Positions 32,971 to 58,132 of a DNA stretch of 64,000 nt are shown here, in pieces. Below the pieces are notes generated by a model. That model made no database searches. It worked only from the letters and a program-made list of their open reading frames with translations, and was not told the origin of the DNA. The stretch comes from a virus: positions 10,469 to 74,468 of the IMG/VR virus record IMGVR_UViG_3300032214_001034, one strand, 5' to 3'. A program made the position numbers and the translations under genes. Numbering within the stretch: the first letter of the stretch is position 1; each line of letters opens with the position of its first letter.

Positions 32971-34188
32971 ATGGCTGTAAATAAGAATTTTGTAGTCAAA
33001 AATGGTTTAGAGGTCGATACCAACCTCATTCTCGCGGATGCTACAACGAATAGTGTTGGTATTGGCACCACAGTTCCCGAATATACCCTTCACGTTTTTG
33101 AAGGGAGTGGTATTGGTGCTACTACCGTTTATGTTACTGGCGTAACAACATCCCTTCAGGGATTAAGAGTTGGTGCCGGTGGAACAGTTTTAACGGTTGT
33201 TGCAAGCCCAGGAATTGGATATTCTGTTGGTGTTGGTTCATCCCAACCAGAATATCTGTTAGATGTTCGTTCACCAGTTTCTACTGGACAAACAGCACTT
33301 TATGTTCAGGGTGATGTCAGAATTACTGGTGATATAAATCTAGACGACATCACGCTTGATGATGCAACAATTCAAGATCTGAGGGTTCAGAACACTTTAT
33401 TTGTTGGTGCTGATGGTGGAACTGGCGTTTCTACCTTTGTTGGTTTCACTACATTCCAAAATAACGTTTATATTGCAGGTGTTACAACACTTGCTGCCAA
33501 CGGAGGAATCACTACAACAGGTGGTGATTTTTATGTCGGTGGAAACTTCTTTAGCAGTGGTGGAATAATTGTTGACAGCGACCTCTATATTATTGGTATT
33601 GCTACTGTTGGGACATTAGATGTCAACGATAATGCAAATATTGATGGTAATCTTCTTGTAACAGGACTATCCACATTTGTTGGACTTAGTACCTTCCAGG
33701 ATTACGTTTTTGTTCAAGATGGTCTAATTAATGCTGGTGTTACAACATCAAATGCATATACAATTAATGGAACTCAAGTAGTTAGTTCTGCAAGAGAACT
33801 GCAGAATATTGCTTCTCTTGATGCAACTACAACTGCAACGATTGAAGCAGCAATTGCTAATGCACCAAACACCTTTACTGATATTGAGGTTACTGGTCTT
33901 TCCACATTTGTTGGATTCAGTACATTCCAAAATGATGTTTATGTTGCTGGTGTAGTAACTGCAACTTCATTCTATGGTAATGGATCAAATCTGACTGGTA
34001 TTGCTACTGGTTTAACTGCAACAATTGGCGTTGGTTCTGAATCAACTTTTGTTGGTGCAGGAGTTACTGAAATTTACTTTGCAACAACCACAGGAACAAA
34101 CGTAAGTGTTGTTTCTGCTGGAACAAGTGCAACTGTTACAATTACTCCAGGTGTTTCACTTGGACTTGCAATCGCTCTTGGCGGTTAA
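32971..34188 (+). CDS. Fibre stalk (putative root), C-terminus GVSLGLAIALGG
   Basis: NFVVKNGL start, repeated VTGLSTFVG.STFQ, FYG.GSNLTGI. Confidence 0.65.
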   Translation: MAVNKNFVVKNGLEVDTNLILADATTNSVGIGTTVPEYTLHVFEGSGIGATTVYVTGVTTSLQGLRVGAGGTVLTVVASPGIGYSVGVGSSQPEYLLDVRSPVSTGQTALYVQGDVRITGDINLDDITLDDATIQDLRVQNTLFVGADGGTGVSTFVGFTTFQNNVYIAGVTTLAANGGITTTGGDFYVGGNFFSSGGIIVDSDLYIIGIATVGTLDVNDNANIDGNLLVTGLSTFVGLSTFQDYVFVQDGLINAGVTTSNAYTINGTQVVSSARELQNIASLDATTTATIEAAIANAPNTFTDIEVTGLSTFVGFSTFQNDVYVAGVVTATSFYGNGSNLTGIATGLTATIGVGSESTFVGAGVTEIYFATTTGTNVSVVSAGTSATVTITPGVSLGLAIALGG

Positions 34189-34214
34189 TAAATACTCTTA
34201 ACACATAAAGAAAA

Positions 34215-34754
34215 ATGGCAGAATCATTTTCAAACGCATTATCAAGAGCAGCAGGAATTGTAACAACCAGTTCTGCTGGTTCTATTGGAATCACGACTAA
34301 CTTAATCACTGGTATTTCAACGGCATCAGTTTCTGTAGGTGATCTGATTGATAATGCAAACTTTATTGCGGGAACTAAAGTTTCTACAATTGGATCTGGG
34401 CAAGTTACTGCAGATAGAAATTCTACAAACACTGCACCAACATCAGCTCAAAACGTCAAGTTCCTTGGTGTTACAAACGTCTATACTTCGCCATCAGCAA
34501 CGAAGAGTATTCTGATTGGCGGAACTTTTGCTAATAACACTAATAATCAAGTAAATTTGACTGTTGAAGTTTTTGATAATAGTGCGGGAATCAGTGCTGC
34601 GATCGCAAGTAAGATTCCAGTTCCTGCAGGAAGTTCATTCGTCATCTCTGATACAGGTAAGACACTTTTAGAAGGTGATGATGTGTTGAGGGTATACTGT
34701 GATACTGCAAATGCAATTGATGTAAGCCTCAGCATTCTCACAGGAGTAGCGTGA
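34215..34754 (+). CDS. Fibre adaptor protein, type A
   Basis: Small beta-rich protein; VPAGSSFV...K..LE..D.L.V...IDV..S shared with 44563 ORF. Confidence 0.55.
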   Translation: MAESFSNALSRAAGIVTTSSAGSIGITTNLITGISTASVSVGDLIDNANFIAGTKVSTIGSGQVTADRNSTNTAPTSAQNVKFLGVTNVYTSPSATKSILIGGTFANNTNNQVNLTVEVFDNSAGISAAIASKIPVPAGSSFVISDTGKTLLEGDDVLRVYCDTANAIDVSLSILTGVA

Positions 34755-34755
34755 T

Positions 34756-35556
34756 ATGGCAGATCGTAACGGTTATATTGGAAGAGCTCCTGGTGATTCA
34801 TCAGTAGTTGTTGCTAGACAGGTATTTTCTCCATCAGGAGTTCAAACAAACTTTACGTTTGCATCTGGATATACTGTTGGTTATTTGGACGCATACCTGA
34901 ATGGCGTTCGTCTGATTGAAGGTCAAGACTATAGTGCAACTGATACATCAACTGTTGGTCTGACTAGTTTTGCTCAGAACGGTGATGTTCTTGAGTTAGT
35001 TGCATATAAAGCATTTAATGTTGCAACAATTGACACTGCACCAGGAAATCTTACCGTTGGTGGATATATTTCTGCTGGTGGATCTATCACTGGATCTGCA
35101 TTTTATGGTGATGGAAGTAACCTAACAGGAATTTCTTCTGTTTCATTTGCAACTACAGCATTCACTCTTGCTAATAATGCAACAGGAATCAATGCAACAT
35201 TTACTGGTAATGTGTCAATTGGTGGCACATTAACGTATGAAGATGTAACAAATGTTGATGCGGTAGGAGTTATTACTGCAAGAAGCGGTATTGAACTTGG
35301 TGCTTCTGGGGTAGGTGGAACAATTACCTCTGGTGGAAATGCAACTTTTGCTGGAATTGTAACTGCAACTGGTGGATTTAATCTTGGTATTAGTTCTGCT
35401 GGATCTGTTATTACTTCAGGACCAGTAAAAACTTTGAATTTTGTAGGAACCGGTAATACATTTGCAGTAAATGGAACTACCGTTGATATTAGTATTCAAG
35501 GTGGTGGTGGAGGAGGGATTACTTCTCTGGATATTACTTCATCATTATTCATTTAA
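34756..35556 (+). CDS. Fibre stalk/branch protein
   Basis: YIGRAP N-terminus, YLNGVRL..G.DY.A.D domain, TLTYEDVTNVD motif, C-terminus LDITSSLFI. Confidence 0.6.
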   Translation: MADRNGYIGRAPGDSSVVVARQVFSPSGVQTNFTFASGYTVGYLDAYLNGVRLIEGQDYSATDTSTVGLTSFAQNGDVLELVAYKAFNVATIDTAPGNLTVGGYISAGGSITGSAFYGDGSNLTGISSVSFATTAFTLANNATGINATFTGNVSIGGTLTYEDVTNVDAVGVITARSGIELGASGVGGTITSGGNATFAGIVTATGGFNLGISSAGSVITSGPVKTLNFVGTGNTFAVNGTTVDISIQGGGGGGITSLDITSSLFI

Positions 35557-35580: not shown

Positions 35581-35979
35581 ATGGCACTCCAGAAAACTAA
35601 AGTATTAAGTATCACATCGGTTACAGGCATTAGCACTGTTGGAATCTTTACTGCTGGTGTGACCGCTACTGATGCAGGAACAGCATCAACAACTTATGTA
35701 AGAAGTGTTGTGATGCATAACACTGGATTGGGAACTGCTAGGGTTTCACTCTACATTAACCCAGACACTAATCCTGTTATTACTGGTTATGGAATCACTG
35801 CAAATAGAATTTTAAGAGTTGATCTTGCTCCAAGTGAAACAACATTCTTTGAAACTAACTATCCGATTGTTCTCACGCCAACTGATGCAATTTCAGTAGA
35901 GGTAAATGCTCCTGATACTGGCGGAACGGGTATTGGTTCAGCAGTTAATTTCCTAGTAAACGGCGATGTTGAAGTCTGA
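35581..35979 (+). CDS. Fibre adaptor protein, type B
   Basis: TTYVRSVVMHNTG...RVDLA..ET.FFE.NYP.VL; close paralog of 53406 ORF. Confidence 0.6.
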   Translation: MALQKTKVLSITSVTGISTVGIFTAGVTATDAGTASTTYVRSVVMHNTGLGTARVSLYINPDTNPVITGYGITANRILRVDLAPSETTFFETNYPIVLTPTDAISVEVNAPDTGGTGIGSAVNFLVNGDVEV

Positions 35980-35981
35980 TT

Positions 35982-36980
35982 ATGAGCGTCAAATCATTTG
36001 GCAATCCATCATCAAGTTTTAGATACAGATTCGGTAGAACTGGAAATAGAGCTTCTAAGCCTTATGCAGTATCAATTCCAATATCTGCTTCTGGTGGAAA
36101 TGTAAGTGCTCTGGAGCCAGGAAATGGATATAAGTATCATACATTTACAAGTCCAGGAACATTTACAGTAACTTCTGGTGTTGGTAATATTGAATATATT
36201 GTAGTTGCTGGTGGTGGCGGAGGAGGAGAATCTGGTGGTGGTGGTGCTGGTGGATTATTATCAAACTCTGTTGAAATGCCTTCTCCAACTAGACAGGCAC
36301 CTTTTCCAGTTTCTGGACCAGTATCATATTCAGTTGTAATTGGTGGTGGTGGTAGTGCAGGTGTATCTGGTCCTGGCGCGGTTGATGGATCTCAAGGAAG
36401 TCCGTCTTCATTTGGACCAGTATCAACAAATGGTGGTGGAGGGGGAACATCGGCTGATGCACCATCTCCATTTGTTGGTGGATCAGGTGGTTCTGGTGGG
36501 GGTGCATCAACTCCTACAGCATTTGATCCTGGTGGAGCGGCAACTAACTATCCTGGACCAACACAACAAGGTTATCCTGGTGGTGGTGCATATGGATATT
36601 TGGCAGGAAATGGAAATAGTGGAGGTGGTGGTGGTGCCGGAGCAGCAGGTCAAGATGGAAGTCCGCCTGGAGGATCACCATTAAAAGGAGGTGATGGTGG
36701 AAATGGACTTCAGTTTCCTGCCTTTACTGGACCTTTAATTGGAGTTCCTGCTCTTGCACCATTGAGTGGTTACTTTGCAGGTGGCGGCGGTGGCGGTTCT
36801 TGGGGGAATCCAGGTGGTGCTGGTGGTTTGGGTGGTGGTGTTCCTGGATCTGGTACTGGAACTACTCCCGCAGCTGCCCAAGCAAATACTGGAGGAGGTG
36901 GTGGTGGATCTGGATATCCACCTTGGGTTCCTGGTGGTGCTGGTGGTTCTGGCATCGTCATCATTCGTTACTTAGCATAA
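35982..36980 (+). CDS. Gly/Pro-rich adhesin tip (one domain)
   Basis: A.GG...YKYHTFT..GTF.V...EY.VVAGGGGGG ... GGSGIVIIRY. Confidence 0.65.
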   Translation: MSVKSFGNPSSSFRYRFGRTGNRASKPYAVSIPISASGGNVSALEPGNGYKYHTFTSPGTFTVTSGVGNIEYIVVAGGGGGGESGGGGAGGLLSNSVEMPSPTRQAPFPVSGPVSYSVVIGGGGSAGVSGPGAVDGSQGSPSSFGPVSTNGGGGGTSADAPSPFVGGSGGSGGGASTPTAFDPGGAATNYPGPTQQGYPGGGAYGYLAGNGNSGGGGGAGAAGQDGSPPGGSPLKGGDGGNGLQFPAFTGPLIGVPALAPLSGYFAGGGGGGSWGNPGGAGGLGGGVPGSGTGTTPAAAQANTGGGGGGSGYPPWVPGGAGGSGIVIIRYLA

Positions 36981-36998: not shown

Positions 36999-38984
36999 AT
37001 GGCATTAAGAGCACTCGGAAATCCACTTGCAAGTTTTATAGATTACCTAGCAAAGACTGGTACTGATGCTTCTACTCCACCACCAACCTTAGAAGGTTTA
37101 ACAGCAACTGGTGGTGTGATTAGTGATTATGTTGATCCGGGATCTGGCGCAATTTATCGAGCACATATATTTAATTCTACGGGTACTTTTTCCGTAACTT
37201 CTGTCGGTGATTATGGTGATACTGTTGATTATTTGCTTGTAGGTGGTGGTGGTGCCGGTGGAATGGGTTTAAATGGTGGTGGTGGTGGAGGAGCAGGAAG
37301 ATACTTGACGGGCACTACTCCAATTCCATCACCATCTTCTTTTTCAATTTCTGTTGGTGGTGGTGGTGCAATAAATTTTCCTGGAGATGGAATAACGGGA
37401 TCTAATAGTGTTGCATCTTTCCCAGCAGGAACAATCACCGCACAAGGAGGTGGTGGAGGAGGTGGAAATGCCAATGCTGGTCTTGCTGGCGGTTCTGGTG
37501 GTGGTGCAGGTAGAGATTCTAATGGTGCTGCTGGTGGATCTGCAACTCCTGGTCCTGGTGGAAATGCTGGTGGAACTTCTGGTTCTTCTACCTCTTTTTC
37601 CGCATCTGGTGGTGGTGGTGGTGCTGGGAGTGCTGGACAACCATTTCAAGCACCACCAGGACCTGGTGTAGAAGTTTCTGGTGGTGGTGGAAATGGACTT
37701 CCAAATAGTATTTCCGGAACTGAAACAATCTATGCAGCAGGTGGAGGAGGGGCAGGAAGATTAAAAACTGCTGGTGGTTCCTCTGGTGTTGGTGGAGGAG
37801 GTGCTGGATATGCAGATCCCACTAATCCAACTGACCCAAATTACTATAAAGGTAGACAAAGCACTGGATCTGGTGGTGGAGGATCTGGGTATTCTTCACC
37901 ATTTACTTGGAACCCACCACAAATTCCAGGTGGAACTGGTGCATCTGGCGTTGCTGTAATTAGATATCAAATAGGACAATTAACAGCAGCAGCAAAAGCA
38001 ACTGGTGGTGCGATTAGTTATTATCAAGGACAAACCATTCATACCTTTACAAGTTCTGGTACTTTTACTTTACCAGCGTCTTATCCATCAATTTCAGCAC
38101 AAATATTAGTTGTTGCTGGTGGTGGTGCAGGTGGATATAGGCATGGTGGTGGTGGAGGAGGAGGAGGTGTTGTCCACGTTCCTCTTGCAAATGGTTCAAT
38201 TTCTAATGGAACTTATACTATAACTGTTGGTGGTGGTGGAGCAGCAAAAACTGTTGATTATGATGGGGGGGATGATGGAAGTCCTTCGTCATTTGGTCCA
38301 CCTTCATCTGCTTCTGCACCAACTCATCTTCTTGCTCTTGGTGGAGGAGGTGGTGGAACTTGGCAACCTGCTACATCTGGTCCTTGGGGATCAGGACATC
38401 CAGGTGGTTCCGGTGGTGGAGAATATGGAAATCCAGATCAATCTGGTGGAACTGGTTCTCAACCCGCACCAACGGTATTTGGTACATCAACCGGATATGG
38501 AACAAATGGTGGAAGTGGAATCAATTATCCAGGAGATGGTAGAATAGGTGGTGGAGGTGGTGGAGCAGGTGGAGCAGGTGTTCCTGGTGGACCTTCTGCA
38601 CCAGAAACAGGAAATGGTGGACCCGGTATTCAAATACAAATAGCATCAAATCCAAATAATAACTACTATTGGGCTGGTGGTGGTGGTGCTGGTGCTTGGA
38701 ATGCACCAGATTTTAGATCTGCTAATAAAGGAGTTGGTGGTGCTGGTGGTGGTGGCGGTGGATCATCTTGGGATGCTGGAGTTCCTGGTGGTCCTGGTGC
38801 TTCTGGTGGACTTGGAGTTGGTGGAACGGGAACTGCTGGTGCAGTAAATATTGGTGGTGATGGGGCACAATCTACAGGTGGTGGTGGAGGTGGAAACGGT
38901 CAGTCGGACTATTCCACTTGGCCTGCTGTTGGAAGAGGTGGATTTGGTGGTTCTGGTATTGTTATTATTGCTTATCCTTCATAA
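36999..38984 (+). CDS. Gly/Pro-rich adhesin tip (two domains)
   Basis: LTATGG..SDY..YRAHIF; linker LTA.AKATGG.ISYY..TIHTFT; ends GSGIVIIAYPS. Confidence 0.65.
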   Translation: MALRALGNPLASFIDYLAKTGTDASTPPPTLEGLTATGGVISDYVDPGSGAIYRAHIFNSTGTFSVTSVGDYGDTVDYLLVGGGGAGGMGLNGGGGGGAGRYLTGTTPIPSPSSFSISVGGGGAINFPGDGITGSNSVASFPAGTITAQGGGGGGGNANAGLAGGSGGGAGRDSNGAAGGSATPGPGGNAGGTSGSSTSFSASGGGGGAGSAGQPFQAPPGPGVEVSGGGGNGLPNSISGTETIYAAGGGGAGRLKTAGGSSGVGGGGAGYADPTNPTDPNYYKGRQSTGSGGGGSGYSSPFTWNPPQIPGGTGASGVAVIRYQIGQLTAAAKATGGAISYYQGQTIHTFTSSGTFTLPASYPSISAQILVVAGGGAGGYRHGGGGGGGGVVHVPLANGSISNGTYTITVGGGGAAKTVDYDGGDDGSPSSFGPPSSASAPTHLLALGGGGGGTWQPATSGPWGSGHPGGSGGGEYGNPDQSGGTGSQPAPTVFGTSTGYGTNGGSGINYPGDGRIGGGGGGAGGAGVPGGPSAPETGNGGPGIQIQIASNPNNNYYWAGGGGAGAWNAPDFRSANKGVGGAGGGGGGSSWDAGVPGGPGASGGLGVGGTGTAGAVNIGGDGAQSTGGGGGGNGQSDYSTWPAVGRGGFGGSGIVIIAYPS

Positions 38985-39002: not shown

Positions 39003-40979
39003 ATGGGCGTAAGATCGGTCAATAATTCACTACAACAGTTTTTAGACACTTTTGTAAGAAGTGGTACTGATGCGTCTACCCCTTCTGTTGCGCCATCAGG
39101 ATTAACAGCAACTGGTGGCGTTATTAGTGATTATGTAGATGGTTCTAATGTTTATAGAGCACACATCTTTACATCAACAGGAACATTTTCAGTAAGTTCT
39201 ATTGGATCTTATGGTTCTAATGTTGAATATCTCGTGGTTGCTGGTGGTGGAGGAGGTGGTGGACATAATACTGGTGGTGGAGGAGGTGCTGGAGGTTTAA
39301 GAACTAATCTTACCGGACATCCATTAGCAGGTTCAGCATTTCCAGTATCAACTTCGCCCGGATCTTATACAGTTACTATTGGATCTGGTGGAATAGGAGG
39401 AGCTCCCTCAGGAAATTCTGGCACTCAGGGTGGTCCATCATCTTTTGGTCCTATTACATCAACAGGTGGTGGATATGGTGGTAAAGGTGTAACTGCATCC
39501 CCAAATGCTGCTCCTGGTGGACCTGGTGGATCTGGTGGAGGTGGAGGTGGAGATGATACTGCTGGCCCATATCCCGGTGGTACTGGCACTTCCGGACAAG
39601 GAAATAATGGTGGATTTGGATATGCACCAGGAGCAAGAGGTGGCGGCGGCGGTGGAATAAGTGCCGAAGGAACTCCCGGTGCATCTGTTGCTGGTCCTGG
39701 TGGCGCAGGTGTTCAAGTTGCTATTGCTGGCCCACCAACATCTACTGGCATAGTTGGCGCATTAAATCCTGGTCCGGGTGAATATCAGTGGTTTGCTGGT
39801 GGTGGCGGCGGCGGTGGAAATGTCAATGCCGGAACTGGTGGTGTAGGTGGTGGTGGAACTGGTGGAACTGGAGGTGGACCTCCAGGAATACCATTTTCTG
39901 CTCCATCACGAGGAACTTATGCTACTGGAGGCGGTGGAGGTGGTGCCGCTGGATGGGGAACAGCAGTTCCTGGAGGTAATGGCGGTTCCGGAATCGTAGT
40001 AGTAAGATATAAAATTGGACAATTAACAGCAACCGCAAAAGCAACTGGTGGTTCTATAAGTTACTATGATGGTAAGACAATTCATACCTTTACGACTTCT
40101 GGTACTTTTACTGCTCCAGGATCATTTAATGAGACTGTAGAATATGTTGTAATTGCTGGTGGTGGTAGTGGTGCTGCTGTATTTGGTGGAGGTGGTGCTG
40201 GTGGATACAGAGAAGGAAGTGTGCCAATTTCCGGTCCATCATCTACTACAATTCAAGTTGGAGCTGGTGCAGCAGGAGTTTCTTACCCTGCCGGTGGTGC
40301 ATTATCTGGTTCACAAGGAACTTCATCTTATTTTGGAGCACCAATAACATCCGATGGTGGGGGTTTTGGTGCCAGTGGACCTGGTGTAGTTGGTGGACCT
40401 GGTGGATCTGGTGGTGGTGGATCCGACTGGGCAGCAACAGGAGCTGCTGGTGGACCGGCAACTGGATATCCAGGACCATCTCAACAAGGATTTCCTGGAG
40501 GAAGTGGATCTGGTGTTGATGCTGGCGGTGGCGGTGGTGGCGGCGCTGGCGGTGCGGGAGGAAATGGTTCTTCTCCATCTGGTGGACTTGGTGGATTGGG
40601 AAGACAAGTACCAGCAACATTTAGAAACCCAAAATCATCTACATCATTAGGATCTTCTGGACCAACGGGACCAGTTCCTGCAACAAATCCTGGAGGAGAT
40701 ACTAGTGGTCTATATTGGTTTGCAGGTGGTGGTGGTGGTGGAGCATATCACGGACCAACAGGAGCTAATCCAGCATCAACTGGTGGTGGTGGAGGAGGAG
40801 GGCCTGTCCCATCTCCATATGCAGGTGCTGGTAATGGTGGAATAAATCCAAATGGAAATGGTAGTCCCGGAAAGGAAAACACTGGTGGCGGAGGAGGAGG
40901 AGGAACTAGAGATCTTGTTACAAAAAGTGCCAGTGGATCTGGTGGTTCCGGAATAGTCCTAATTGCTTATCCTTCATAA
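39003..40979 (+). CDS. Gly/Pro-rich adhesin tip (two domains)
   Basis: Same architecture as 36999 ORF. Confidence 0.65.
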   Translation: MGVRSVNNSLQQFLDTFVRSGTDASTPSVAPSGLTATGGVISDYVDGSNVYRAHIFTSTGTFSVSSIGSYGSNVEYLVVAGGGGGGGHNTGGGGGAGGLRTNLTGHPLAGSAFPVSTSPGSYTVTIGSGGIGGAPSGNSGTQGGPSSFGPITSTGGGYGGKGVTASPNAAPGGPGGSGGGGGGDDTAGPYPGGTGTSGQGNNGGFGYAPGARGGGGGGISAEGTPGASVAGPGGAGVQVAIAGPPTSTGIVGALNPGPGEYQWFAGGGGGGGNVNAGTGGVGGGGTGGTGGGPPGIPFSAPSRGTYATGGGGGGAAGWGTAVPGGNGGSGIVVVRYKIGQLTATAKATGGSISYYDGKTIHTFTTSGTFTAPGSFNETVEYVVIAGGGSGAAVFGGGGAGGYREGSVPISGPSSTTIQVGAGAAGVSYPAGGALSGSQGTSSYFGAPITSDGGGFGASGPGVVGGPGGSGGGGSDWAATGAAGGPATGYPGPSQQGFPGGSGSGVDAGGGGGGGAGGAGGNGSSPSGGLGGLGRQVPATFRNPKSSTSLGSSGPTGPVPATNPGGDTSGLYWFAGGGGGGAYHGPTGANPASTGGGGGGGPVPSPYAGAGNGGINPNGNGSPGKENTGGGGGGGTRDLVTKSASGSGGSGIVLIAYPS

Positions 40980-40999: not shown

Positions 41000-41692
41000 A
41001 TGGCAATAGGACGCCCAGTATCATTAACATCGAATGTGGCTTCTAAAACCATCAGTGTAACTGCAACAGCATCTCAGACGCTTTTTACAGTCACTGGTGG
41101 TTATAGAATCAATCAACTTGCAGTATTTCGTAATGGTGTTCGTTTAGTTGATGGGACTGATTACACTGCAAGAGATGGTGCATCAGTCACTCTTCTTTCT
41201 GCAGCAACTGCAGGAGATACATTAGAGTTTCAGATTTTTGATGATTTCCGTGTTGCTGATGCGATTGTTTCTGCTGAGTCAGATCAAACAATCTATGGAA
41301 ATCTAACTGTTACTGGTACATTAACTGGTGCATCAATTGGTATTCAGTCTGCAGGAACTTCTGTTGGTTCTGCAACAACACTTAACTTTATAGGTGTTGG
41401 TAATACCTTTGCGGTTAATGGCAATACAATTGATATTAGTATTGCTGGTGGCGGTGGTGGTGGTCTTGGAACTGCAATCAACTATTCCAATGGAACTACC
41501 ACACCATTTAGTTACATTGATAGAGAAGCAACAATAGGTCAAGATATTGTTCTTGATACTTTAAATGCTGGTGAGAGTTCATCAATTATCGTTTCAGTTA
41601 TTCCAAACATTACTATTGCATCTGGTGTTGGAGTAACTGTTGGTGCAGGTAAGACAATGGTTATTGATGTCCTTCAAATCGGAGATCTCTGA
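41000..41692 (+). CDS. Fibre stalk/branch protein
   Basis: MAIGRP N-terminus, NGVRL.DG.DY.A.D domain and TLNF.G.GNTFAVNG..DISI.GGGGGG shared with 34756 ORF. Confidence 0.6.
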   Translation: MAIGRPVSLTSNVASKTISVTATASQTLFTVTGGYRINQLAVFRNGVRLVDGTDYTARDGASVTLLSAATAGDTLEFQIFDDFRVADAIVSAESDQTIYGNLTVTGTLTGASIGIQSAGTSVGSATTLNFIGVGNTFAVNGNTIDISIAGGGGGGLGTAINYSNGTTTPFSYIDREATIGQDIVLDTLNAGESSSIIVSVIPNITIASGVGVTVGAGKTMVIDVLQIGDL

Positions 41693-41925
41693 TGTCAAGT
41701 TTAAGAGTTACTACTTTAAGAGGTAGATCAGGTAATGAAAGCCCATCATTACCTGATGGTGTCGTCATTACTGGTATTGCAACTGCTACTGGATTTAGTG
41801 GCAATTTAACTGGTAATGCAACGGGACTTTCTGGTACTCCAGATATTGTTGTTGGAACTATCACTGCATCGACGTATGTGGGTGTTCCAGCGTCATCAGA
41901 TTGGCGTGATAGTTCACTCTTCTAA
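41692..41925 (+). CDS. Short stalk, C-terminus DWRDSSLF
   Basis: MS.L.V N-terminus and G.ATAT.F.GN.TG shared with 44297 and 47014 ORFs. Confidence 0.6.
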   Translation: MSSLRVTTLRGRSGNESPSLPDGVVITGIATATGFSGNLTGNATGLSGTPDIVVGTITASTYVGVPASSDWRDSSLF

Positions 41926-41947: not shown

Positions 41948-42310
41948 ATGGCACTTAATAGAGGCAACTTAGGGAATGTAACGCAGGTTTCAGCAGCGAC
42001 CACGACTGCAGTATATACTGTTGGTTCTGCTCAGACTGCTTATATTAAGAGTGTTCTGATCACCAATCTGAGTGCATCTGCAACTCAAAATGTTCAGGTT
42101 CATGTAGTTCCAAACAGCGGTGGAAGTGCTGGGACTGCATCATCAACCACAAGAATTGCAAGAATTGGTATATCAACAGATGATACATTCTTCTTTGAGC
42201 CAGCATATCCAATCACATTAACCGCAACTGGAGATACTTTACAGGTTTATAATGAAGGTTTAACATCAAACTCCGTTAATGTTCTGGTATTAGGCGACAA
42301 AGAGGTATGA
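41948..42310 (+). CDS. Fibre adaptor protein, type B
   Basis: TAYIKSV..TN...RIARI...DTFFFEPAYPITL...VNVLVLGD.EV. Confidence 0.6.
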   Translation: MALNRGNLGNVTQVSAATTTAVYTVGSAQTAYIKSVLITNLSASATQNVQVHVVPNSGGSAGTASSTTRIARIGISTDDTFFFEPAYPITLTATGDTLQVYNEGLTSNSVNVLVLGDKEV

Positions 42311-47013: not shown

Positions 47014-47811
47014 ATGTCGCAGCTATACGTTGACAACATCAAAAACAGAACAGGTGGATCAGTTGGATTTCCGACTGGAATTGTTGTAACGGGGGTTGCG
47101 ACTGCTACGCAATTTAGTGGAAACATCACAGGAACAACAGCAACATTCTCTGGTAATGTGTCAGTTGGAGGCACATTAAGTTATGAAGATGTAACGAATG
47201 TTGATTCAGTCGGATTGATCACTGCAAGAAATGGTATTGATGTAACAGCGGGTGGTATTAATGCTGTTGGTGTTGTAAGTGCTACTAGTTTTGTCGGAAC
47301 TGCATTAAGTATTTCTGGTATTGGAACTATCAGCGACCTAAGTATAAAAGCAGCTGCAGAAACAGTATCAGTCGCCTCAACAAGTGATTTGGGTGGGGGA
47401 AAGGTTGTAATTGAGTGTGATGCAACAAATGGAACAGTATTTACTCACAATCTTGTGAATGGAACTGTTGGTATTGTTTCATTAAAAAATTTCCCAGTTA
47501 GAGGAAATTCTGTTACAACATATTCAATTATATTCAACCAACTTCCAACAACTCCTGCAGGGGCTGGTAATACAACTCCAGCAACAGGTATTGGAACTAA
47601 TATTACATTAACTCCTTCAGGTGTTTCTGGATTTACAACATCAGCAAGAGTTGCAACAGCATCTACTGTAACTCTTTCAACAACTGCAAATGATGTAGAT
47701 ATTGTAACTCTTGCAGTTCATTACAATGGTTCTGGAACAGGAACTCCAGGAAATTACAGAGTATTTGCAACAGGAAATACTGGATATAGATTCGGAACTA
47801 TTGGATTCTGA
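47014..47811 (+). CDS. Stalk with fused C-terminal adaptor domain (type C)
   Basis: MSQLYVDNI N-terminus, TLSYEDVTNVDSVG, C-terminal ..DI..L......NYRV domain. Confidence 0.6.
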   Translation: MSQLYVDNIKNRTGGSVGFPTGIVVTGVATATQFSGNITGTTATFSGNVSVGGTLSYEDVTNVDSVGLITARNGIDVTAGGINAVGVVSATSFVGTALSISGIGTISDLSIKAAAETVSVASTSDLGGGKVVIECDATNGTVFTHNLVNGTVGIVSLKNFPVRGNSVTTYSIIFNQLPTTPAGAGNTTPATGIGTNITLTPSGVSGFTTSARVATASTVTLSTTANDVDIVTLAVHYNGSGTGTPGNYRVFATGNTGYRFGTIGF

Positions 47812-47824: not shown

Positions 47825-48832
47825 ATGGCACCATTTTTTACTGGAATTGCAAAGAATATAGGTGGTTATGGATTTGGTAGAAGAAGAAGTGGGCCCGTTC
47901 CATTTTCTGCTACTGGAGGTACTTTAGTTTCTCCGGGAAATGGATATAATTATCACGTTTTTCTTACACCCGGAACTTTTACAGTAACTTCAGGAACTGC
48001 TAATGTAGAATATCTGGTAGTTGCTGGTGGTGGAGCAGGTGCTTATGATGGAAGATCCCCATCAGACCGACAAGCAACAGGTGGTGGTGCTGGAGGTTTA
48101 AGAACTAACTCACCAACAGCACCAGCACCATTAAAGGCACCAGATTTACCTCTAGACGCAGGAACATATCCTGTTAGTGTTGGTCCTGGAGGAGTTGGTG
48201 GTTTTGTTACTGGACCCGGTTCTGATGGATTTAGAGTAGGAAATAAGGGCGGAGATTCAACATTTCATACTATAACTTCAAACGCAGGTGGTGGTGGAGG
48301 AGGTCATTATCCACCAGCTGGAGGTAATGTCTATCCAGATATAACAGTATATAAAGGTGGATCTGGATCTAGTGGAAATGGACCATCAACATCTGATGGA
48401 AACTTTCCACCAACTTCTCCGCCACAAGGAAATCCTTCTGGTGCTGCAAGCGGACCTGGAGCTAGTGTTGGTGGTGCTGGTGGTGCTGGTGGTGTTGGGG
48501 GTCCAGGATTAACTGGTGCTGGCGGCGCTGGATTGGCAGTTCCTGCTTTTGCTGCGCCACTAATTTCGCCGGCAATCCCCGCACCAGTTCAACCAACTTG
48601 GATACCTGCTGTTGGACCTACAGGGTTGTATGCTGGTGGTGGTGGATCTACGAGTAATTTTTCTGATGGAACAATTATTGGACCTGGTGGACCGGGTGGA
48701 GGCGGAAGTGCTGGTAGACCTGCAGGATCTGCAGCAGTTACTTATACAGGTGGTGGTGGTGGGGGATCTGGTGGATCTGCAACTTTTGCATCTGGTGGAT
48801 CCGGAATTGTTATTGTTAGATATGTTGCATAA
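47825..48832 (+). CDS. Gly/Pro-rich adhesin tip (one domain)
   Basis: MAP...GFGRRR N-terminus; YNYHVF..PGTF; ends GSGIVIVRY. Confidence 0.65.
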   Translation: MAPFFTGIAKNIGGYGFGRRRSGPVPFSATGGTLVSPGNGYNYHVFLTPGTFTVTSGTANVEYLVVAGGGAGAYDGRSPSDRQATGGGAGGLRTNSPTAPAPLKAPDLPLDAGTYPVSVGPGGVGGFVTGPGSDGFRVGNKGGDSTFHTITSNAGGGGGGHYPPAGGNVYPDITVYKGGSGSSGNGPSTSDGNFPPTSPPQGNPSGAASGPGASVGGAGGAGGVGGPGLTGAGGAGLAVPAFAAPLISPAIPAPVQPTWIPAVGPTGLYAGGGGSTSNFSDGTIIGPGGPGGGGSAGRPAGSAAVTYTGGGGGGSGGSATFASGGSGIVIVRYVA

Positions 48833-49508: not shown

Positions 49509-49557
49509 AAACTTCGGTGGAACTGACTAAATAGTTATATCTATATTGAATAAAACT

Positions 49558-50268: not shown

Positions 50269-50271
50269 GTT

Positions 50272-52975: not shown

Positions 52976-53383
52976 ATGACAAGAGCAAGAGACCTAGCAA
53001 GATTAGGCAATAGCCAAGCACTTTCGGTTGATAGTAACTTTAATGTTGGTATTAACTCCACACAACCCGATTCAAAGTTAGATGTTGTTGGTGTTGTTAG
53101 TGCTACTTCATTTTATGGTGATGGTTCAAACTTAACTGGTATTGCTGCTACTGATACAGTAAGCACCAGTTCTTTAAACGTTATTGGTATTTCCACTCTC
53201 GGTGGATTTACTACTTTTGGTAATAATGCTTTTATTGCGGGTATTGTAACTGCTACTAGTTTCAGCGGAACAGTCCCATCATCAAACTTAAGTGGAGCAT
53301 TACCTGCTCTTGATGGTTCTGCACTTACAAATCTCAATATTCCTGCAGGTTTTAACGAACTTGATGCAGCTTTGTTTAACTAA
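52976..53383 (+). CDS. Short stalk, C-terminus FNELDAALFN
   Basis: MTRARDLA N-terminus, VGI.ST.P, FYGDGSNLTGI. Confidence 0.6.
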   Translation: MTRARDLARLGNSQALSVDSNFNVGINSTQPDSKLDVVGVVSATSFYGDGSNLTGIAATDTVSTSSLNVIGISTLGGFTTFGNNAFIAGIVTATSFSGTVPSSNLSGALPALDGSALTNLNIPAGFNELDAALFN

Positions 53384-53405: not shown

Positions 53406-53807
53406 ATGGGACTTAAAAGAACTAAACTCTTAGGAATTCAAGCAGTTACTGGTATTAATACCGTTGGTATTTTGACGGTTGGCACCACTCCAACTGCTGG
53501 TGGTGTTGGTATTGCATCAACCACTTATCTGCGTGGTGTGGTGATGCATAATACTGGACTTGCAACCTGCACCTCATCACTTTATGTTTATCCAAGCACT
53601 GTTGCAGTTTCTGGTGTAGGACAGACGGCATATCGTTTAGCGAGAGTTGACTTAGCATCTAACGAAACTTTCTTCTTTGAGATGAACTACCCACTGGTTC
53701 TGGTAAATCAAGAAAAGATTGTTGTAGAAGTTACAGCACCAGCATCAGGAGGAACGGGTATTGGTAGTGCAGTAAACTATCAAATCCTTGGTGACACTGA
53801 CATCTAA
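53406..53807 (+). CDS. Fibre adaptor protein, type B
   Basis: Close paralog of 35581 ORF (STTY.R.VVMHNTGL, GGTGIGSAVN). Confidence 0.6.
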   Translation: MGLKRTKLLGIQAVTGINTVGILTVGTTPTAGGVGIASTTYLRGVVMHNTGLATCTSSLYVYPSTVAVSGVGQTAYRLARVDLASNETFFFEMNYPLVLVNQEKIVVEVTAPASGGTGIGSAVNYQILGDTDI

Positions 53808-53822: not shown

Positions 53823-54857
53823 ATGGGTGCAAGAAGTTCTAATAGTAATAGGGGACAAAATAATCGTAGTGATGGACACTTATTAGAGTATTTCCGTAAT
53901 ACTTTTGTTCGTGGTGGTGGTGGTACTAATGTCAATATCAGTTTTCTTGCTACTGGTGGAGACATTGCTAGTGCTTTATCTCCAGGAAACGGGTATAAGT
54001 ATCATACTTTTTCCAGTCTTGGAACTTTTACCGTTAATAGTATTGGAAATAAAGGCACAAAATGCGAAATATTAATTGTTGCCGGAGGAGCATCTGGTGG
54101 ATCTGATAGAGGTGGTGGTGGTGGCGCCGGTGGCGTAGTTCATTACACTAATTTGAGTTTATCGGTTGGGTCTTATACAGTATCTGTTGGTGGTGGAGGA
54201 GCATCAGTTACTGGGTCACCCGGAAATTCTGGCAGTGATAGTTCATTTGGAACTAGTCCATCCCCAACTTATCTAGTATCTAAAGGTGGTGGTGGTGGAG
54301 GATATAATTCTGGTGGTGGTCTAAATGGTAAAATTGGTGGTTCTGGTGGCGGCGCAAACTATGGCGGAAATCCAGGTCCAGCAAATCAATCATCTCAAAA
54401 TCCTTCATTCGTAGGATTACCTGGATTTAATCAATATGGAAACAATGGTGGTACTGGTTCCGGAGGTCCAAAGTTTCAAAATGGAGGTGGAGGTGGTGCC
54501 GGTGGTGCCGGAGGAAATGGAAATACTGGATCAACCAATACCGGTGTTGGTGGAGTGGGAATTCAAATTCCTGCTTTTTCTGGTCCTCTTATTGGCATCC
54601 CTGCCCTGAATCCATTAAGTGCTTTTTTTGCAGGTGGTGGTGCTGCTTCTGTTGGTTCTGAAAATGGTTATGGAACGCCATATTCTCCAGGAGCATCTGG
54701 CGGTTCTGGTGGTGGTGGACCATCTAACCCAGAACCTCCCGGCACTGGAAATCCAGGAACTCAATATTCTGGTGGAGGTGGCGGTGGTGGTCACACCGGC
54801 GCAGATTCTTCGGGTTCTGGTGGTGATGGTCTTGTTGTTATTCGATATTTAGAATAA
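53823..54857 (+). CDS. Gly/Pro-rich adhesin tip (one domain)
   Basis: AL.PGNGYKYHTF and PAF.GPLIG.PAL.PLS shared with 35982 ORF. Confidence 0.65.
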   Translation: MGARSSNSNRGQNNRSDGHLLEYFRNTFVRGGGGTNVNISFLATGGDIASALSPGNGYKYHTFSSLGTFTVNSIGNKGTKCEILIVAGGASGGSDRGGGGGAGGVVHYTNLSLSVGSYTVSVGGGGASVTGSPGNSGSDSSFGTSPSPTYLVSKGGGGGGYNSGGGLNGKIGGSGGGANYGGNPGPANQSSQNPSFVGLPGFNQYGNNGGTGSGGPKFQNGGGGGAGGAGGNGNTGSTNTGVGGVGIQIPAFSGPLIGIPALNPLSAFFAGGGAASVGSENGYGTPYSPGASGGSGGGGPSNPEPPGTGNPGTQYSGGGGGGGHTGADSSGSGGDGLVVIRYLE

Positions 54858-56191: not shown

Positions 56192-56219
56192 AGAGGATCC
56201 TGCTTGATATAGATAAGAA

Positions 56220-56243: not shown

Positions 56244-56278
56244 ATGCGAATAAATAACTAGAAATAGGTTTGGGAATA

Positions 56279-57193
56279 ATGCCCACGAATGCATCAAGAC
56301 TATCTGATTTTGGATCGGGAATAGGCACTCAAGGTGCAGTGCTTCAGGTTGATAATGCAAATCAGCGTATTGGTATTGGTACAACAAATCCACAAGCAAT
56401 GCTTCAGGTTGGAACTGGAGTTTCTGTGTATGGGAATAGTGGTATTGTAAGTGCAACTGCGTTTTATGGTGACGGAAGTAACTTAACTGGTATCAATATC
56501 AATTATGTATCAAATGCTGGCATTGCAACTTATGCGACTACTGCTGGTATTGCAACAAATGCACAAGGATTAACAGGAACACCAAATATTGTAATTAATA
56601 ATATTGCTGGTGCTGCAGCTACATTTAGTGGCAATGTGTCAATTGCTGGTACATTAACTTATGAAGATGTAACCAACGTTGACTCTGTTGGTCTAATCAC
56701 GGCAAGAAGTGGTGTAAGAATTAATAGTGGTGGATTAGTTGTAACTGCAGGAGTTTCTACATTAACTACATTAATTCCAGACGAAACTAGGTTTGTAACT
56801 GTTGCAGAAAAACTTACAAGAATTGATGGAAATACGGTAAATCTTACCTACAGTTCCAATGGTTCTAATATTGGATTAGCAACAAATCCAAGTGGTAATA
56901 TTACGCTCAACGTAACTGGAATTCCAACATCAAGTGATTTTGATAATCACGTTATTACCTTTAGTGTCTTTGTTACTAATACTGGAACTGCAAGATCTTG
57001 TACTGCAGTTAATCTAAATGGAGTATCAAAAACTATTAACTGGGCAGGTGGTTCACTTGGAGAGGCAACTTCTGGAGTAACTACATCAAATGGAATAGAC
57101 ATTTATAGTTTTACTGGAATTAATACAGTTGGATCTGCAAGTACAACTGCAAATTATAGAGTTCTTGGAGTAGTTAATGGGGGGTATAGATGA
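56279..57193 (+). CDS. Stalk with fused C-terminal adaptor domain (type C)
   Basis: ATG at 56279; IGIGTTNP, FYGDGSNLTGI, TLTYEDVTNVDSVG, I.W.GG...DIYSF...NYRV. Confidence 0.6.
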   Translation: MPTNASRLSDFGSGIGTQGAVLQVDNANQRIGIGTTNPQAMLQVGTGVSVYGNSGIVSATAFYGDGSNLTGININYVSNAGIATYATTAGIATNAQGLTGTPNIVINNIAGAAATFSGNVSIAGTLTYEDVTNVDSVGLITARSGVRINSGGLVVTAGVSTLTTLIPDETRFVTVAEKLTRIDGNTVNLTYSSNGSNIGLATNPSGNITLNVTGIPTSSDFDNHVITFSVFVTNTGTARSCTAVNLNGVSKTINWAGGSLGEATSGVTTSNGIDIYSFTGINTVGSASTTANYRVLGVVNGGYR

Positions 57194-57196
57194 TTT

Positions 57197-58132
57197 ATGG
57201 CACCTATTTTAAGTAGAGTTGGATTTGATAAAGGATTTGGTAGAAGAAGAGGAGGAGCAAGTAGTGTTGCTGCTGCTTTTGCCACTGGTGGAGATTTAAG
57301 AAGTGCGTATTTGGCACCTGATGGATATTATTATCACACTTTTTCAACTCCAGGAACTTTTACTGTAATTTCAGGATCTAAAAATGTAGAACTTCTTGTT
57401 GTTGGTGGTGGTGGCGGCAGTACTGGATCTGGAGGCGGCGCAGGCGGTGGTGGTATAGTTTATGTTCCAAGTTTTCCTGTTTCTTCTCCAATTTCTGTTA
57501 ATGTTGGTTCTGGTGGTCTGGTTGCTGCCGTACCAGCAAATGATGGAAGTCCTTCTAGTTTTGGTCCTACGGTTGTTGCTACTGGAGGAGGTGGGGGTTA
57601 TACTGATGGAACTGGTTATGGTGCAGGAAGACCTGGTGGAAGTGGAAGCGGTGGTTTAGGTCCAGGTAATCCCGGTGGCAGTAGTGTTTCTCCACCAAGC
57701 ACTGGTGGTGGAACTGCTTATGGAAATCCAGGTGGTGCCGGTTATTCTAGAGCTTCTGGTGGTGGCGGTGGCGGTGCTGGTGCTGCCGGAAGTCCTTCTG
57801 GACCTGGTGGTAATGGTCAACCTTTTCCACAATTTTCTTATTCAAATGTTTTTCCTACACCAATAGCATCATCATTAAATCCATATTCCCCAACAACTAA
57901 TCATTATGCTGGAGGAGGAGGAGGAGGACAATCAGAATCTGGCACTATTTTTCCTGGCGGATTTGGTGGTGGTGGACAATCTGCTGCATTTGATGCCTCT
58001 CCTGGACTTGCTGGGACAGGAGTAAATTATCTAGGAGGAGGCGGCGGCGGTTCTTCAACACGTTCTGGAGTCGGAACTAAAGGTGGTGCTGCCGGTGGAT
58101 CTGGAATAGTAGTAGTTCGTTATCTACCATAA
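57197..58132 (+). CDS. Gly/Pro-rich adhesin tip (one domain)
   Basis: MAP...GFGRRR N-terminus like 47825 ORF; ends GSGIVVVRY. Confidence 0.65.
   Translation: MAPILSRVGFDKGFGRRRGGASSVAAAFATGGDLRSAYLAPDGYYYHTFSTPGTFTVISGSKNVELLVVGGGGGSTGSGGGAGGGGIVYVPSFPVSSPISVNVGSGGLVAAVPANDGSPSSFGPTVVATGGGGGYTDGTGYGAGRPGGSGSGGLGPGNPGGSSVSPPSTGGGTAYGNPGGAGYSRASGGGGGGAGAAGSPSGPGGNGQPFPQFSYSNVFPTPIASSLNPYSPTTNHYAGGGGGGQSESGTIFPGGFGGGGQSAAFDASPGLAGTGVNYLGGGGGGSSTRSGVGTKGGAAGGSGIVVVRYLP

What the first reader, a model, noticed from the sequence alone, without database searches (positions are those of the whole stretch)
32971..58132. Hierarchical branched adhesin system with a terminal-peptide docking code
Seen in sequence: 21 fibre-type genes fall into stalks, small adaptors and eight Gly/Pro-rich tips (12 tip domains), and their termini co-vary in three classes. 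Class A: stalk C-terminus G.AIA..G (32971, 44297) -> adaptors 34215/44563 -> next protein starts Y[IL]GR (34756, 44977; 41000 starts IGRP). Class B: stalk C-terminus D..(S/A)LF (34756, 41692, 52976) -> adaptors with FFE..YP (35581, 41948, 53406) -> tips starting M..[KR][SAN]..N, mostly followed by a [LI][DE][YT][FL] helix (35982, 36999, 39003, 42312, 53823). Class C: stalk with a fused C-terminal domain (47014, 56279) -> tips starting MAP...GFGRRR (47825, 57197). Stalks 41692, 44297 and 47014 share an MS.[LI].V N-terminus; 52976 and 56279 share a weaker A..L N-terminus. Established knowledge: polyglycine-II sandwiches form the T-even gp38 adhesin. Inference: these parts plug together into a branched or interchangeable fibre tree displaying many different receptor-binding tips.
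Basis: partly seen in the sequence, partly recalled or inferred. Interest (0 to 1): 0.9.

Follow-up and report, generated by a model that had tools for sequence, protein, structure and literature searches.

The report
Modular multi-tip cyanophage tail fibres
A marine cyanophage carries about 21 tail-fibre genes arranged as repeated shaft, small connector and glycine-rich tip cassettes whose matching end-peptides recur in over 100 related contigs. This probably encodes the branched fibres seen by microscopy on its cultured relative Bellamy, but no physical contact has been shown.

Summary
The window is a T4-type cyanomyovirus fragment near Synechococcus phage Bellamy. It has 8 shaft genes, 5 small genes and 8 tip genes with 12 Pfam Gly_rich_2 domains.

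The tip model matches the TNF-like plus glycine-rich receptor-binding domain of cyanophage Pam3 fibre gp24 and a Bxb1 tail-tip protein (Z 14.5), not specifically T-even gp38. The small class-B protein models as a ~120 aa jellyroll.

In 62 non-redundant viral cassettes and 62 independent metagenomic ones, this protein is flanked by a shaft ending in ..LF and by a tip. Connector subtype tracks the shaft's last 12 residues and the tip's first ~40, but not their bodies.

- ELDAALF is invariant across 21 synonymous DNA versions.
- One near-identical shaft pair differs only in the last 10 residues, and connector and tip class switch with them.
- The same tip N-termini occur on LamG and DUF7483 bodies.
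- I found a fourth junction class: DVLQI.. hub followed by MS.L.V shafts.
- Published EM reports branched fibres on Bellamy.

The docking and branching reading is well motivated but unproven. The complex prediction gave no answer. The small proteins could be connectors or assembly factors. This is a new variant of known branched receptor-binding systems.

The parts
24596..30481 (+). 1961 aa long tail fibre.
   Evidence: phrog_529 'tail fiber protein', E = 0. Homologue of Bellamy gp27.
30493..32931 (+). 812 aa protein with two Gly-rich blocks of another subtype. It is a ninth Gly-rich protein and ends ..VIIRLAT.
   Evidence: phrog_24848. BLASTP to the tips down to 4e-41. No Pfam hit.
32971..34188 (+). 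Proximal shaft, 405 aa. The N-terminus resembles a baseplate wedge initiator family. The C-terminus is ..GLAIALGG (junction class A1).
   Evidence: phrog_8215, E = 3e-40, over residues 1-136. The C-terminal motif recurs in 15 or more loci.
34215..34754 (+). Small junction protein A1, 179 aa.
   Evidence: phrog_26609, E = 9e-82. In relatives it is flanked by ..GL[AV]IALG. and MADRNGYIGRAP...
34756..35556 (+). Shaft, 266 aa. N-terminus MADRNGYIGRAP (class A). A Gly6 linker precedes the C-terminal ..DITSSLFI (class B1).
   Evidence: phrog_18345 'tail fiber'.
35581..35979 (+). Small junction protein B1, 132 aa (jellyroll family).
   Evidence: phrog_20100, E = 4e-44.
35982..36980 (+). Tip, 332 aa, with one TNF-like/Gly-rich domain and a B1-type N-terminus.
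   Evidence: PF21722, E = 6e-23. AF2 pLDDT 77.7. Z 14.5 to Pam3 gp24 (7ypx_A) and to 9d93_Qb.
36999..38984 (+). Tip, 661 aa, two domains, B1-type N-terminus.
   Evidence: PF21722, two stretches.
39003..40979 (+). Tip, 658 aa, two domains, B1-type N-terminus.
   Evidence: PF21722, two matches.
41000..41692 (+). Hub shaft, 230 aa. The N-terminus MAIGRP is homologous to the 34756 N-domain. The C-terminus is ..DVLQIGDL (junction class D).
   Evidence: phrog_18345. In 8 of 8 loci it is followed by an MS.L.V-type shaft, in 7 of them through an ATGA overlap.
41692..41925 (+). Short shaft, 77 aa. N-terminus MSSLRV, C-terminus ..SSDWRDSSLF (class B3).
   Evidence: Natural swap partner L060.
41948..42310 (+). 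Small junction protein B3, 120 aa, modelled as an 8-10 strand jellyroll.
   Evidence: AF2 pLDDT 87.8. VIA Z 10.4 to the KHP40 cement protein, 8.7-9.6 to turret, Ena and nucleoplasmin folds.
42312..44276 (+). Tip, 654 aa, two domains, B3-type N-terminus MAFKNI..SLLDYF.
   Evidence: PF21722, two matches.
44297..44533 (+). Short shaft, 78 aa. N-terminus MSKIQV, C-terminus ..GKAIALSMVFG (class A2).
44563..44964 (+). Small junction protein A2, 133 aa.
   Evidence: hhalign 96% to the A1 family. Flanks recur.
44977..46992 (+). Tip, 671 aa, two domains, N-terminus MSYLGRRIG (class A).
   Evidence: PF21722, two matches.
47014..47811 (+). Shaft, 265 aa. N-terminus MSQLYV, with a fused ~140 aa C-terminal domain (class C).
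   Evidence: phrog_36132, E = 8e-31, over residues 109-264.
47825..48832 (+). Tip, 335 aa, one domain, N-terminus MAPFF (class C).
   Evidence: PF21722.
52976..53383 (+). Shaft, 135 aa, with C-terminus ..FNELDAALFN (class B2).
53406..53807 (+). Small junction protein B2, 133 aa.
   Evidence: phrog_20100, E = 1e-46.
53823..54857 (+). Tip, 344 aa, one domain, B2-type N-terminus MGARS..DGHLLEYFRNTF.
   Evidence: PF21722.
56279..57193 (+). Shaft, 304-307 aa, with a fused C-terminal domain (class C). The start is ATG 56279 or TTG 56270.
57197..58132 (+). Tip, 311 aa, one domain, N-terminus MAPILS (class C).
   Evidence: PF21722.

Best explanation
This is the host-recognition module of a Bellamy-like T4-type cyanomyovirus. 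It is built from exchangeable parts.

The parts (fold and family shown; trimeric state and receptor binding inferred):
- Fibre shafts, presumed trimeric.
- Receptor-binding tips made of one or two TNF-like plus glycine-rich domains of the Pam3 gp24 type.
- Small ~120-180 aa proteins encoded exactly between a shaft gene and the next part. Class B models as a jellyroll.

How a junction is defined (co-variation shown; binding inferred): each junction has three elements that travel together in evolution. These are the last ~10 residues of the shaft, often behind a poly-Gly linker; the subtype of the small protein; and the first ~40 residues of the next protein, a short basic peptide plus a helix. 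I infer that the small protein binds the shaft's C-terminal peptide on one side and the N-terminal module of the next part on the other. In class C the equivalent socket would be a domain fused to the shaft. In class D a hub C-terminus (..DVLQI..) would take shafts that start MS.L.V directly.

Why I infer a branched assembly: several parts share one socket type. Three tips follow the B1 connector, and three MS.L.V shafts follow hub 41000. The assembly is therefore either branched or alternatively loaded, displaying up to eight or nine different tips.
For: Shown by tools:

1. Tips. There are 12 PF21722 domains. The tip model has Z 14.5, rmsd 3.0 A over 182 residues, to the Pam3 fibre 7ypx_A, and Z 14.5 to Bxb1 9d93_Qb. 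ALK/LTK score about 7 and the next unrelated hits about 3.

2. Class B connector. The model has pLDDT 87.8. It is a jellyroll, best matched by virion cement and turret proteins and Ena pilins (Z 8.7-10.4). The family has no known name. It comprises 378 clusters at 50% identity, mostly stand-alone proteins of 105-136 aa.

3. Gene order. Shaft, ~22 nt gap, connector, 1-15 nt gap, tip is conserved in 62 non-redundant IMG/VR cassettes and in 62 further metagenome cassettes.

4. Co-variation. Connector identity correlates with the shaft's last 12 residues (rho 0.74) and with tip residues 1-12 (0.59) and 13-40 (0.56). It does not correlate with the shaft's preceding 40 residues (0.19) or with tip residues 41-140 (-0.06). 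Connector clusters against peptide classes give ARI 0.89, and against tip classes 0.87. The maximum over 2000 permutations was 0.22.

5. Selection. ELDAALF is invariant across 21 distinct DNA versions that use up to 6 synonymous Leu codons.

6. Natural swap. 41692 and L060_5715 are near-identical up to ..YVGVPA. They then read SSDWRDSSLF and GFTELDAALFN, with B3 and B2 connector and tip respectively.

7. Modular bodies. The same tip N-termini occur on DUF7483 and LamG bodies. MS.L.V shafts carry four different C-terminal classes.

8. Late expression. Late-promoter-like TAAATA overlaps the stop codon before shafts, connectors and tandem tips. Connector and tip are translationally coupled.

9. 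Relative. Bellamy has the same cassettes and 'branched fibers' by EM (PMC5646251).
Against: - No physical evidence exists for any contact.
- Co-variation of three adjacent DNA segments can also arise from linkage within one recombination block, and the cassettes are related by descent.
- No virion proteomics exists for these proteins. A jellyroll fold does not prove a structural role.
- Sequence profiles do not link class A connectors, class B connectors and the class C fused domain.
- The tip N-terminus is modelled with low confidence (pLDDT about 50).
- The link between Bellamy's branched fibres and these particular genes is unproven.
Confidence: 0.5

Rival explanations
1. The small proteins are junction-specific assembly factors or chaperones that do not stay in the virion. 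They would hold or register the shaft's C-terminal peptides, or help join shaft and tip, and then leave. The shaft C-terminus would bind the tip N-terminus directly, as with T-even gp37-gp38 or the released Pam3 gp25 chaperone.
For: - Phage fibres commonly need a small chaperone encoded next to them (Pam3 gp24/gp25, PMC9608196).
- Fibre folding often starts at the C-terminus (established knowledge).
- The small genes look late-expressed, as chaperone genes are.
- The co-variation data fit this model as well as the connector model.
Against: - The fold is a full 8-10 strand jellyroll that resembles virion cement, turret and pilin subunits. It has no helical trimerisation domain like gp25 or Tfa.
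- The connector subtype ignores the tip body. It is the same with Gly-rich, LamG or DUF7483 bodies, so it is not a folding chaperone of the Gly-rich domain.
- In class C the corresponding position is a domain fused to the shaft.
Confidence: 0.3
2. The cassettes are separate, unbranched fibres or independent baseplate and head appendages that arose by duplication. The shared termini would reflect common descent and recombination blocks, not a docking specificity.
For: - All cassettes are paralogous.
- The three co-varying segments are contiguous DNA of roughly 550 nt.
- Permutation tests do not correct for relatedness.
Against: - The terminal heptapeptide is conserved at protein level despite saturating synonymous change.
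- The recombination boundary falls exactly at the start of the terminal decapeptide.
- Many short shafts of 57-135 aa, and tips with only ~40 non-domain residues, have no other plausible attachment part.
- Three tips and three MS.L.V shafts share one upstream socket.
- Bellamy's fibres look branched.
Confidence: 0.12
3. The Gly-rich proteins are not virion receptor-binding proteins at all. They might be secreted, or act as decoy or host-modifying proteins.
For: There is no proteomic evidence. The 2OG oxygenase and halogenase genes are interspersed among the cassettes.
Against: - The fold matches the distal receptor-binding domain of solved phage fibres.
- The genes sit in the baseplate and fibre region.
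- They are interleaved with fibre-repeat shafts and late-promoter-like motifs.
Confidence: 0.04

Closest known systems
Cyanophage Pam3 tail fibre gp24 with chaperone gp25 (PDB 7YPX/7YFW; PMC9608196)
   Same: The tip domain has the same TNF-like plus glycine-rich fold (Z 14.5, 27% identity over 182 residues). It has an N-terminal helix ahead of the domain and a small partner gene next to it. The host is a cyanobacterium.
   Different: - Pam3 has one fibre, one protein and one downstream chaperone with a helical trimerisation domain.
- Here there are 8-9 tips, some with two tandem domains. They sit behind separate shafts, and a jellyroll protein is encoded upstream of the tip.
T-even long tail fibre with gp38 adhesin (T2 and S16 type: gp34-gp35-gp36-gp37-gp38)
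   Same: Both are serial multi-protein fibres whose last piece is a small Gly-rich adhesin. That adhesin is attached by its N-terminal module to the C-terminus of the distal shaft. Bodies are hypervariable and junctions are conserved (PMC3157838).
   Different: - There is no Pfam GP38 match, and S16 gp38 (6F45) was not among the fold hits.
- T-even has no small connector gene between gp37 and gp38.
- T-even has one tip type per virion rather than many.
Branched receptor-binding protein systems with docking peptides: Klebsiella KP32, K11 and KP34-type podophages, Ackermannviridae CBA120-type tailspike complexes, and the phiKp24 hyperbranched fibres (PMC6872550, PMC13352976, bioRxiv 10.1101/2024.03.21.586117, 10.1101/2022.03.15.484430)
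   Same: The logic is the same: a primary anchor carries further receptor-binding proteins through short conserved N-terminal peptides or docking domains. Specificity modules are exchanged by recombination at those junctions.
   Different: - Those systems use T4gp10-like branching domains and tailspike depolymerases.
- Here no such domain was detected. The sockets appear to be separate small jellyroll proteins or short C-terminal peptides, and the tips are TNF-like/Gly-rich domains.
Synechococcus phage Bellamy gp27-gp54 (NC_047838; PMC5646251)
   Same: The cassette order and terminal motifs are the same. It is the only cultured phage found with the class B small protein. EM shows branched fibres.
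   Different: Nearly all these Bellamy genes are annotated 'hypothetical protein'. No paper found here links them to the branched fibres. The cassette types at equivalent positions differ. For example, Bellamy's first branch is B2 where the window's is B3.

Membership tests
Pfam PF21722 Gly_rich_2 (TNF-like/glycine-rich fibre tip domain, Pam3 gp24 type) | Profile match above the curated cut-off | tested here: met
   There are 12 matches of 27.8-82.2 bits against a cut-off of 24.3. E = 6e-23 and 5e-29.
Pfam PF21722 Gly_rich_2 (TNF-like/glycine-rich fibre tip domain, Pam3 gp24 type) | Fold superposes on a solved TNF-like plus Gly-rich domain | tested here: met
   Model m0ebc12737ec4 gives Z 14.5, rmsd 3.0 A over 182 residues to 7ypx_A, and Z 14.5 to 9d93_Qb. 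ALK/LTK score 6.3-7.3 and the next hits about 3.3.
Pfam PF21722 Gly_rich_2 (TNF-like/glycine-rich fibre tip domain, Pam3 gp24 type) | Located at the distal end of a virion fibre and binds the host receptor | not testable with these tools
   This needs virion proteomics, cryo-EM and adsorption assays.
T-even gp38 adhesin (S16/T2 type) | Sequence membership in the GP38 family | tested here: not met
   The Pfam scan of tips returned only PF21722. There were only weak hits to phrog_863 'tail fiber assembly' (E = 2e-5 and 6e-6).
T-even gp38 adhesin (S16/T2 type) | Three-layer polyglycine-II sandwich matching 6F45 | tested here: inconclusive
   6F45 was not among the listed Foldseek or VIA hits. Absence from a hit list does not exclude the fold.
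Branched RBP systems with T4gp10-like branching domain and docking peptide | T4gp10-like branching domain in the anchor protein | tested here: inconclusive
   Shafts had no Pfam hit. PHROG hits were only to generic 'tail fiber' and 'baseplate wedge subunit' repeat families. No shaft structure was predicted.
Branched RBP systems with T4gp10-like branching domain and docking peptide | Conserved short N-terminal docking peptide on secondary RBPs, independent of the RBP body | tested here: met
   N-terminal classes are conserved on Gly-rich, LamG and DUF7483 bodies. Physical docking was not tested.
Tail-fibre assembly chaperones (Tfa, T4 gp38/gp57A, Pam3 gp25) | Sequence or fold match of the small proteins to a known chaperone family | tested here: inconclusive
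   There was no Pfam or named PHROG match. The top 50 fold hits are jellyroll capsid, cement, turret, pilin and nucleoplasmin proteins, and none is a fibre chaperone. Only class B was modelled.

The most novel reading that the evidence does not exclude
The small jellyroll proteins could be a new class of stand-alone plug connectors. Each of the three flexible C-terminal tails of a trimeric shaft would capture its own connector-tip unit. Every node would then branch up to three-fold, and paralogous tips would compete for the same socket. A single burst would produce virions with mixed, combinatorial sets of up to nine different TNF-like/Gly-rich adhesins. This could be the molecular basis of broad and plastic host range in marine cyanomyoviruses, and of Bellamy's branched baseplate and head fibres.
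Probability: 0.25. Interest if true: 0.85.

Novelty: new variant of a known kind. Interest (0 to 1): 0.62.

Why it matters
Receptor-binding proteins of T4-type cyanophages are largely unassigned, although these phages are major agents of mortality for marine Synechococcus and Prochlorococcus.

This module gives a concrete and testable parts list. It names 8-9 candidate adhesins of a solved fold class. It proposes a set of junction rules: four terminal-peptide classes and two small-protein families. It also points to a cultured relative, Bellamy, whose unexplained branched fibres could be mapped onto these genes.

If the junction rules hold, they would help explain how host range is reshuffled by recombination in the ocean. 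They would also allow tip repertoires to be read directly from metagenomes.

Tried and rejected
1. Complex prediction. I submitted shaft C-terminal 60 aa x3, connector 53406 and full tip 53823, each with its own alignment. The result was 'no answer' (ipSAE 0.00 and 0.01, mark 0.32; controls not run). It counts neither for nor against binding.

2. An apparent natural connector-tip fusion. An 823 aa protein had five variants in one 90% cluster alongside eight unfused 120 aa variants. I first read this as support for a structural role and then rejected it. In the closest available DNA (L077) the spacer reads TAG GAG GTA TAG AAG ATG. Both TAG codons correspond to Q in the 'fusion'. It is therefore most likely a gene call made with a TAG=Q code across a normal Shine-Dalgarno spacer.

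3. Other 'long' relatives. P0002, P0003, P0060 and P0134 look like chimeric or misassembled contigs. Several distant relatives are tandem duplications of the jellyroll, not shaft fusions.

4. Sequence searches of tips and of shaft 47014 against the PDB, with single sequences and with a 12-domain profile. Nothing significant was found.

5. Profile-profile comparison of class A connectors, class B connectors and the class C fused domain. Only A1-A2 are related. The A-B and C-domain links were not detectable. ESM Atlas look-ups gave only unnamed viral clusters.

6. The S-TIM5 'virion structural protein' fold neighbour of the connector (TM 0.6, 12% identity). This is too weak to use as proteomic evidence, and S-TIM5 is a different lineage.

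7. tblastn of connectors and tips against 50,697 phage records returned only Bellamy. The class B connector thus appears confined to Bellamy among cultured phages, but the low-complexity filter and possible withheld records limit this conclusion.

8. A strict T4 late promoter, TATAAATA, occurs only twice on the + strand in the region. The shorter TAAATA motif that overlaps stop codons is a consensus-level observation only.

Full report
**What the window is.** The window is 64 kb of a 74.5 kb IMG/VR viral contig estimated to be 36% complete. Upstream genes encode a baseplate tail-tube cap, a tail tube protein, a baseplate hub/lysozyme and a large virion structural protein. The only cultured relative detected is Synechococcus phage Bellamy (Kyanoviridae, Bellamyvirus). 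At the DNA level this match is one short 84%-identical stretch. At the protein level the Bellamy connector gp37 is 72% identical to 53406. Bellamy genes gp27 to gp54 have the same gene order and the same terminal motifs, and nearly all are annotated 'hypothetical protein'.

**Checking the observation.**
- Eight are fibre-repeat shafts of 77-405 aa, with PHROG hits to 'tail fiber' and 'baseplate wedge' families.
- Five are small proteins. 35581, 41948 and 53406 all belong to phrog_20100. 34215 belongs to phrog_26609. 44563 is a distant homologue of 34215 (hhalign 96%).
- Eight are proteins with 27-33% Gly. Together they hold exactly 12 Pfam PF21722 domains above the cut-off.

The terminal motif classes are present. 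Two things were missed. One is a ninth Gly-rich protein of another subtype, together with a 1961 aa fibre just upstream. The other is a fourth junction class: hub 41000 ends ..DVLQIGDL and is followed by an MS.L.V-type shaft in 8 of 8 loci, in 7 of them through an ATGA overlap.

**What the parts are.** A tip (35982), modelled with 25 homologues, reached pLDDT 77.7. Its best structural matches are the Pam3 fibre gp24 (7ypx_A: Z 14.5, rmsd 3.0 A, 182 residues, 27% identity) and a mycobacteriophage Bxb1 tail-tip chain (9d93_Qb: Z 14.5). ALK/LTK TNF-like/Gly-rich domains follow at Z about 7, and everything else is near Z 3. In Pam3 this domain is the distal part proposed to bind the receptor, and an N-terminal helix docks the fibre (PMC9608196). 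The tips here also have a short N-terminal helix, modelled with low confidence. T-even gp38 was not retrieved, so gp38 is an analogy rather than the family.

The class B small protein (41948, 44-sequence alignment) gave a confident all-beta model (pLDDT 87.8). It is a jellyroll. The best matches are a trimeric phage cement protein (Z 10.4), virus turret proteins, Ena pilins and nucleoplasmin. None of the listed matches is a fibre chaperone. The family has 378 clusters at 50% identity in 1.8 billion representatives, mostly stand-alone proteins of 105-136 aa.

**Comparative test of the 'docking code'.** A scan of IMG/VR with the class B proteins returned 69 loci. After de-duplication there were 62 cassettes.
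- In 59 of these the upstream gene ends ..LF or ..LF plus one residue, typically 19-25 nt before the small gene.
- In 54 the downstream gene, 1-15 nt away, is Gly-rich.
- A second, independent set from metagenome contigs gave 62 further cassettes. There, 59 of the 60 with an upstream gene end the same way.

Subtypes match across the three elements.
- ..DITASLF. goes with tips that start M..K..GN.
- ..ELDAALF. goes with MGARS..DGHLLEYF.
- ..DWRDSSLF goes with MAFKNI..SLLDYF.
- ..W..D.WLYG.G goes with MAPIKS.

Connector clusters at 60% identity agree with peptide classes (ARI 0.89) and with tip classes (ARI 0.87). No permutation out of 2000 exceeded 0.22. Classes A and C recur in the same way.

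**Is this more than co-inheritance?** Four results say the junction is a unit distinct from the bodies.
1. Connector identity tracks the shaft's last 12 residues (rho 0.74) and tip residues 1-40 (0.56-0.59). It does not track the shaft's preceding 40 residues (0.19) or tip residues 41-140 (-0.06).
2. ELDAALF is invariant in 21 different DNA versions with free synonymous change, so the constraint acts on the peptide and not on an overlapping promoter.
3. Shaft 41692 and a shaft in L060 are nearly identical until the last ten residues. There they carry the B3 and B2 peptides respectively, and each is followed by the matching connector and tip type.
4. The same N-terminal modules sit on tips with unrelated bodies, LamG lectin-like and DUF7483. 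Shafts with the MS.L.V N-terminus carry four different C-terminal classes.

In many shafts the peptide follows a poly-Gly linker, which suggests a tethered plug. These data cannot exclude linkage within a ~550 nt recombination block. They show selection and modularity, not contact.

**Branching.** Three tips with one N-terminal class follow the single B1 connector, and the same three-tip arrangement occurs in L022. Three MS.L.V shafts follow the single hub 41000, as in Bellamy (gp35, then gp36, gp39 and gp42). The shafts are presumed to be trimers, so either three-fold branching or alternative loading is plausible. Independently, Hua et al. [quoted passage not shown] No one has linked those fibres to these genes.

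**Connector or chaperone?** The small genes each follow a late-promoter-like TAAATA that overlaps the preceding stop codon, and they are translationally coupled to the tip. Their subtype ignores the tip body, so they are not folding chaperones of the Gly-rich domain. They are specific to the junction. Nothing here shows whether they remain in the virion (my preferred reading, 0.5) or act transiently (0.3).

**What failed.**
- The single complex prediction gave no answer.
- An apparent connector-tip fusion is most likely a TAG=Q gene-calling artefact.

**Comparison with what is known.** The logic matches branched receptor-binding systems with docking peptides in Klebsiella podophages, Ackermannviridae and phiKp24, and the serial T-even fibre with a gp38 tip. 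The parts differ. No T4gp10-like branching domain was detected. The putative sockets are stand-alone jellyrolls or short peptides. The tips are of the Pam3 gp24 type. I therefore class this as a new variant of a known kind, of real interest for cyanophage host recognition, with the mechanism still inferred.

Noticed in passing
window 48888-52960: Metabolic genes sit between two fibre cassettes. They include two Pfam-confirmed 2OG-Fe(II) oxygenases (48888 and 50991), a third Pfam-less gene (50272) that corresponds in position to one of Bellamy's annotated oxygenase/ferrochelatase genes, and a flavin-dependent tryptophan halogenase (51539, PF04820, E = 3e-81). They follow a sigma-70-like TTGACA..TATAAT rather than a late motif. 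Bellamy has the oxygenases at the same place. Whether they modify the Pro- and Gly-rich tips is unknown.
   Followed up: partly
window 49546-50268 and 55508-56191: Two paralogous proteins (46% identity) have a YxYxSYEE..GRGYIG N-terminus and lysine-rich SEET-type repeats. They look like homing-endonuclease-type insertions inside the fibre module.
   Followed up: no
window 30493-32931: This 812 aa protein directly follows the 1961 aa fibre. It has two Gly-rich blocks and a ..VIIRLAT end that resembles the tips' ..GIVVIRY end, but it falls below the PF21722 threshold. It may be a ninth adhesin of another subtype, with no small connector gene.
   Followed up: partly
window 37893-38066, 39936-40109, 43272-43445, 45931-46104: The linker between the two domains of the four two-domain tips (..GIVVVRYQIGQLTATAKATGG.ISYY.GKTIHTF..) is a conserved 174 nt DNA block. 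Identity is 68-83%, not near-identical. The tip 3' ends plus CATAAATA..CTAAAAA form another repeated block. Both are plausible recombination anchors.
   Followed up: partly
L077:811-835 and proteins P0001, P0008: Public protein collections contain 823 aa 'connector-tip fusion' proteins. The two Q residues at their junction coincide with two TAG codons in the nearest available DNA. This probably reflects gene calling with a TAG=Q code on short contigs, and is a caution for database users.
   Followed up: partly
proteins P0105, P0132, P0146, P0107, P0119, P0057: Distant relatives of the class B jellyroll occur as tandem duplications within one polypeptide. This hints that the domain self-associates.
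   Followed up: no
window 54978-55406: A 142 aa acidic protein (phrog_7759) has a homologue in Bellamy (gp34) that also sits inside the fibre module. Its function is unknown.
   Followed up: no
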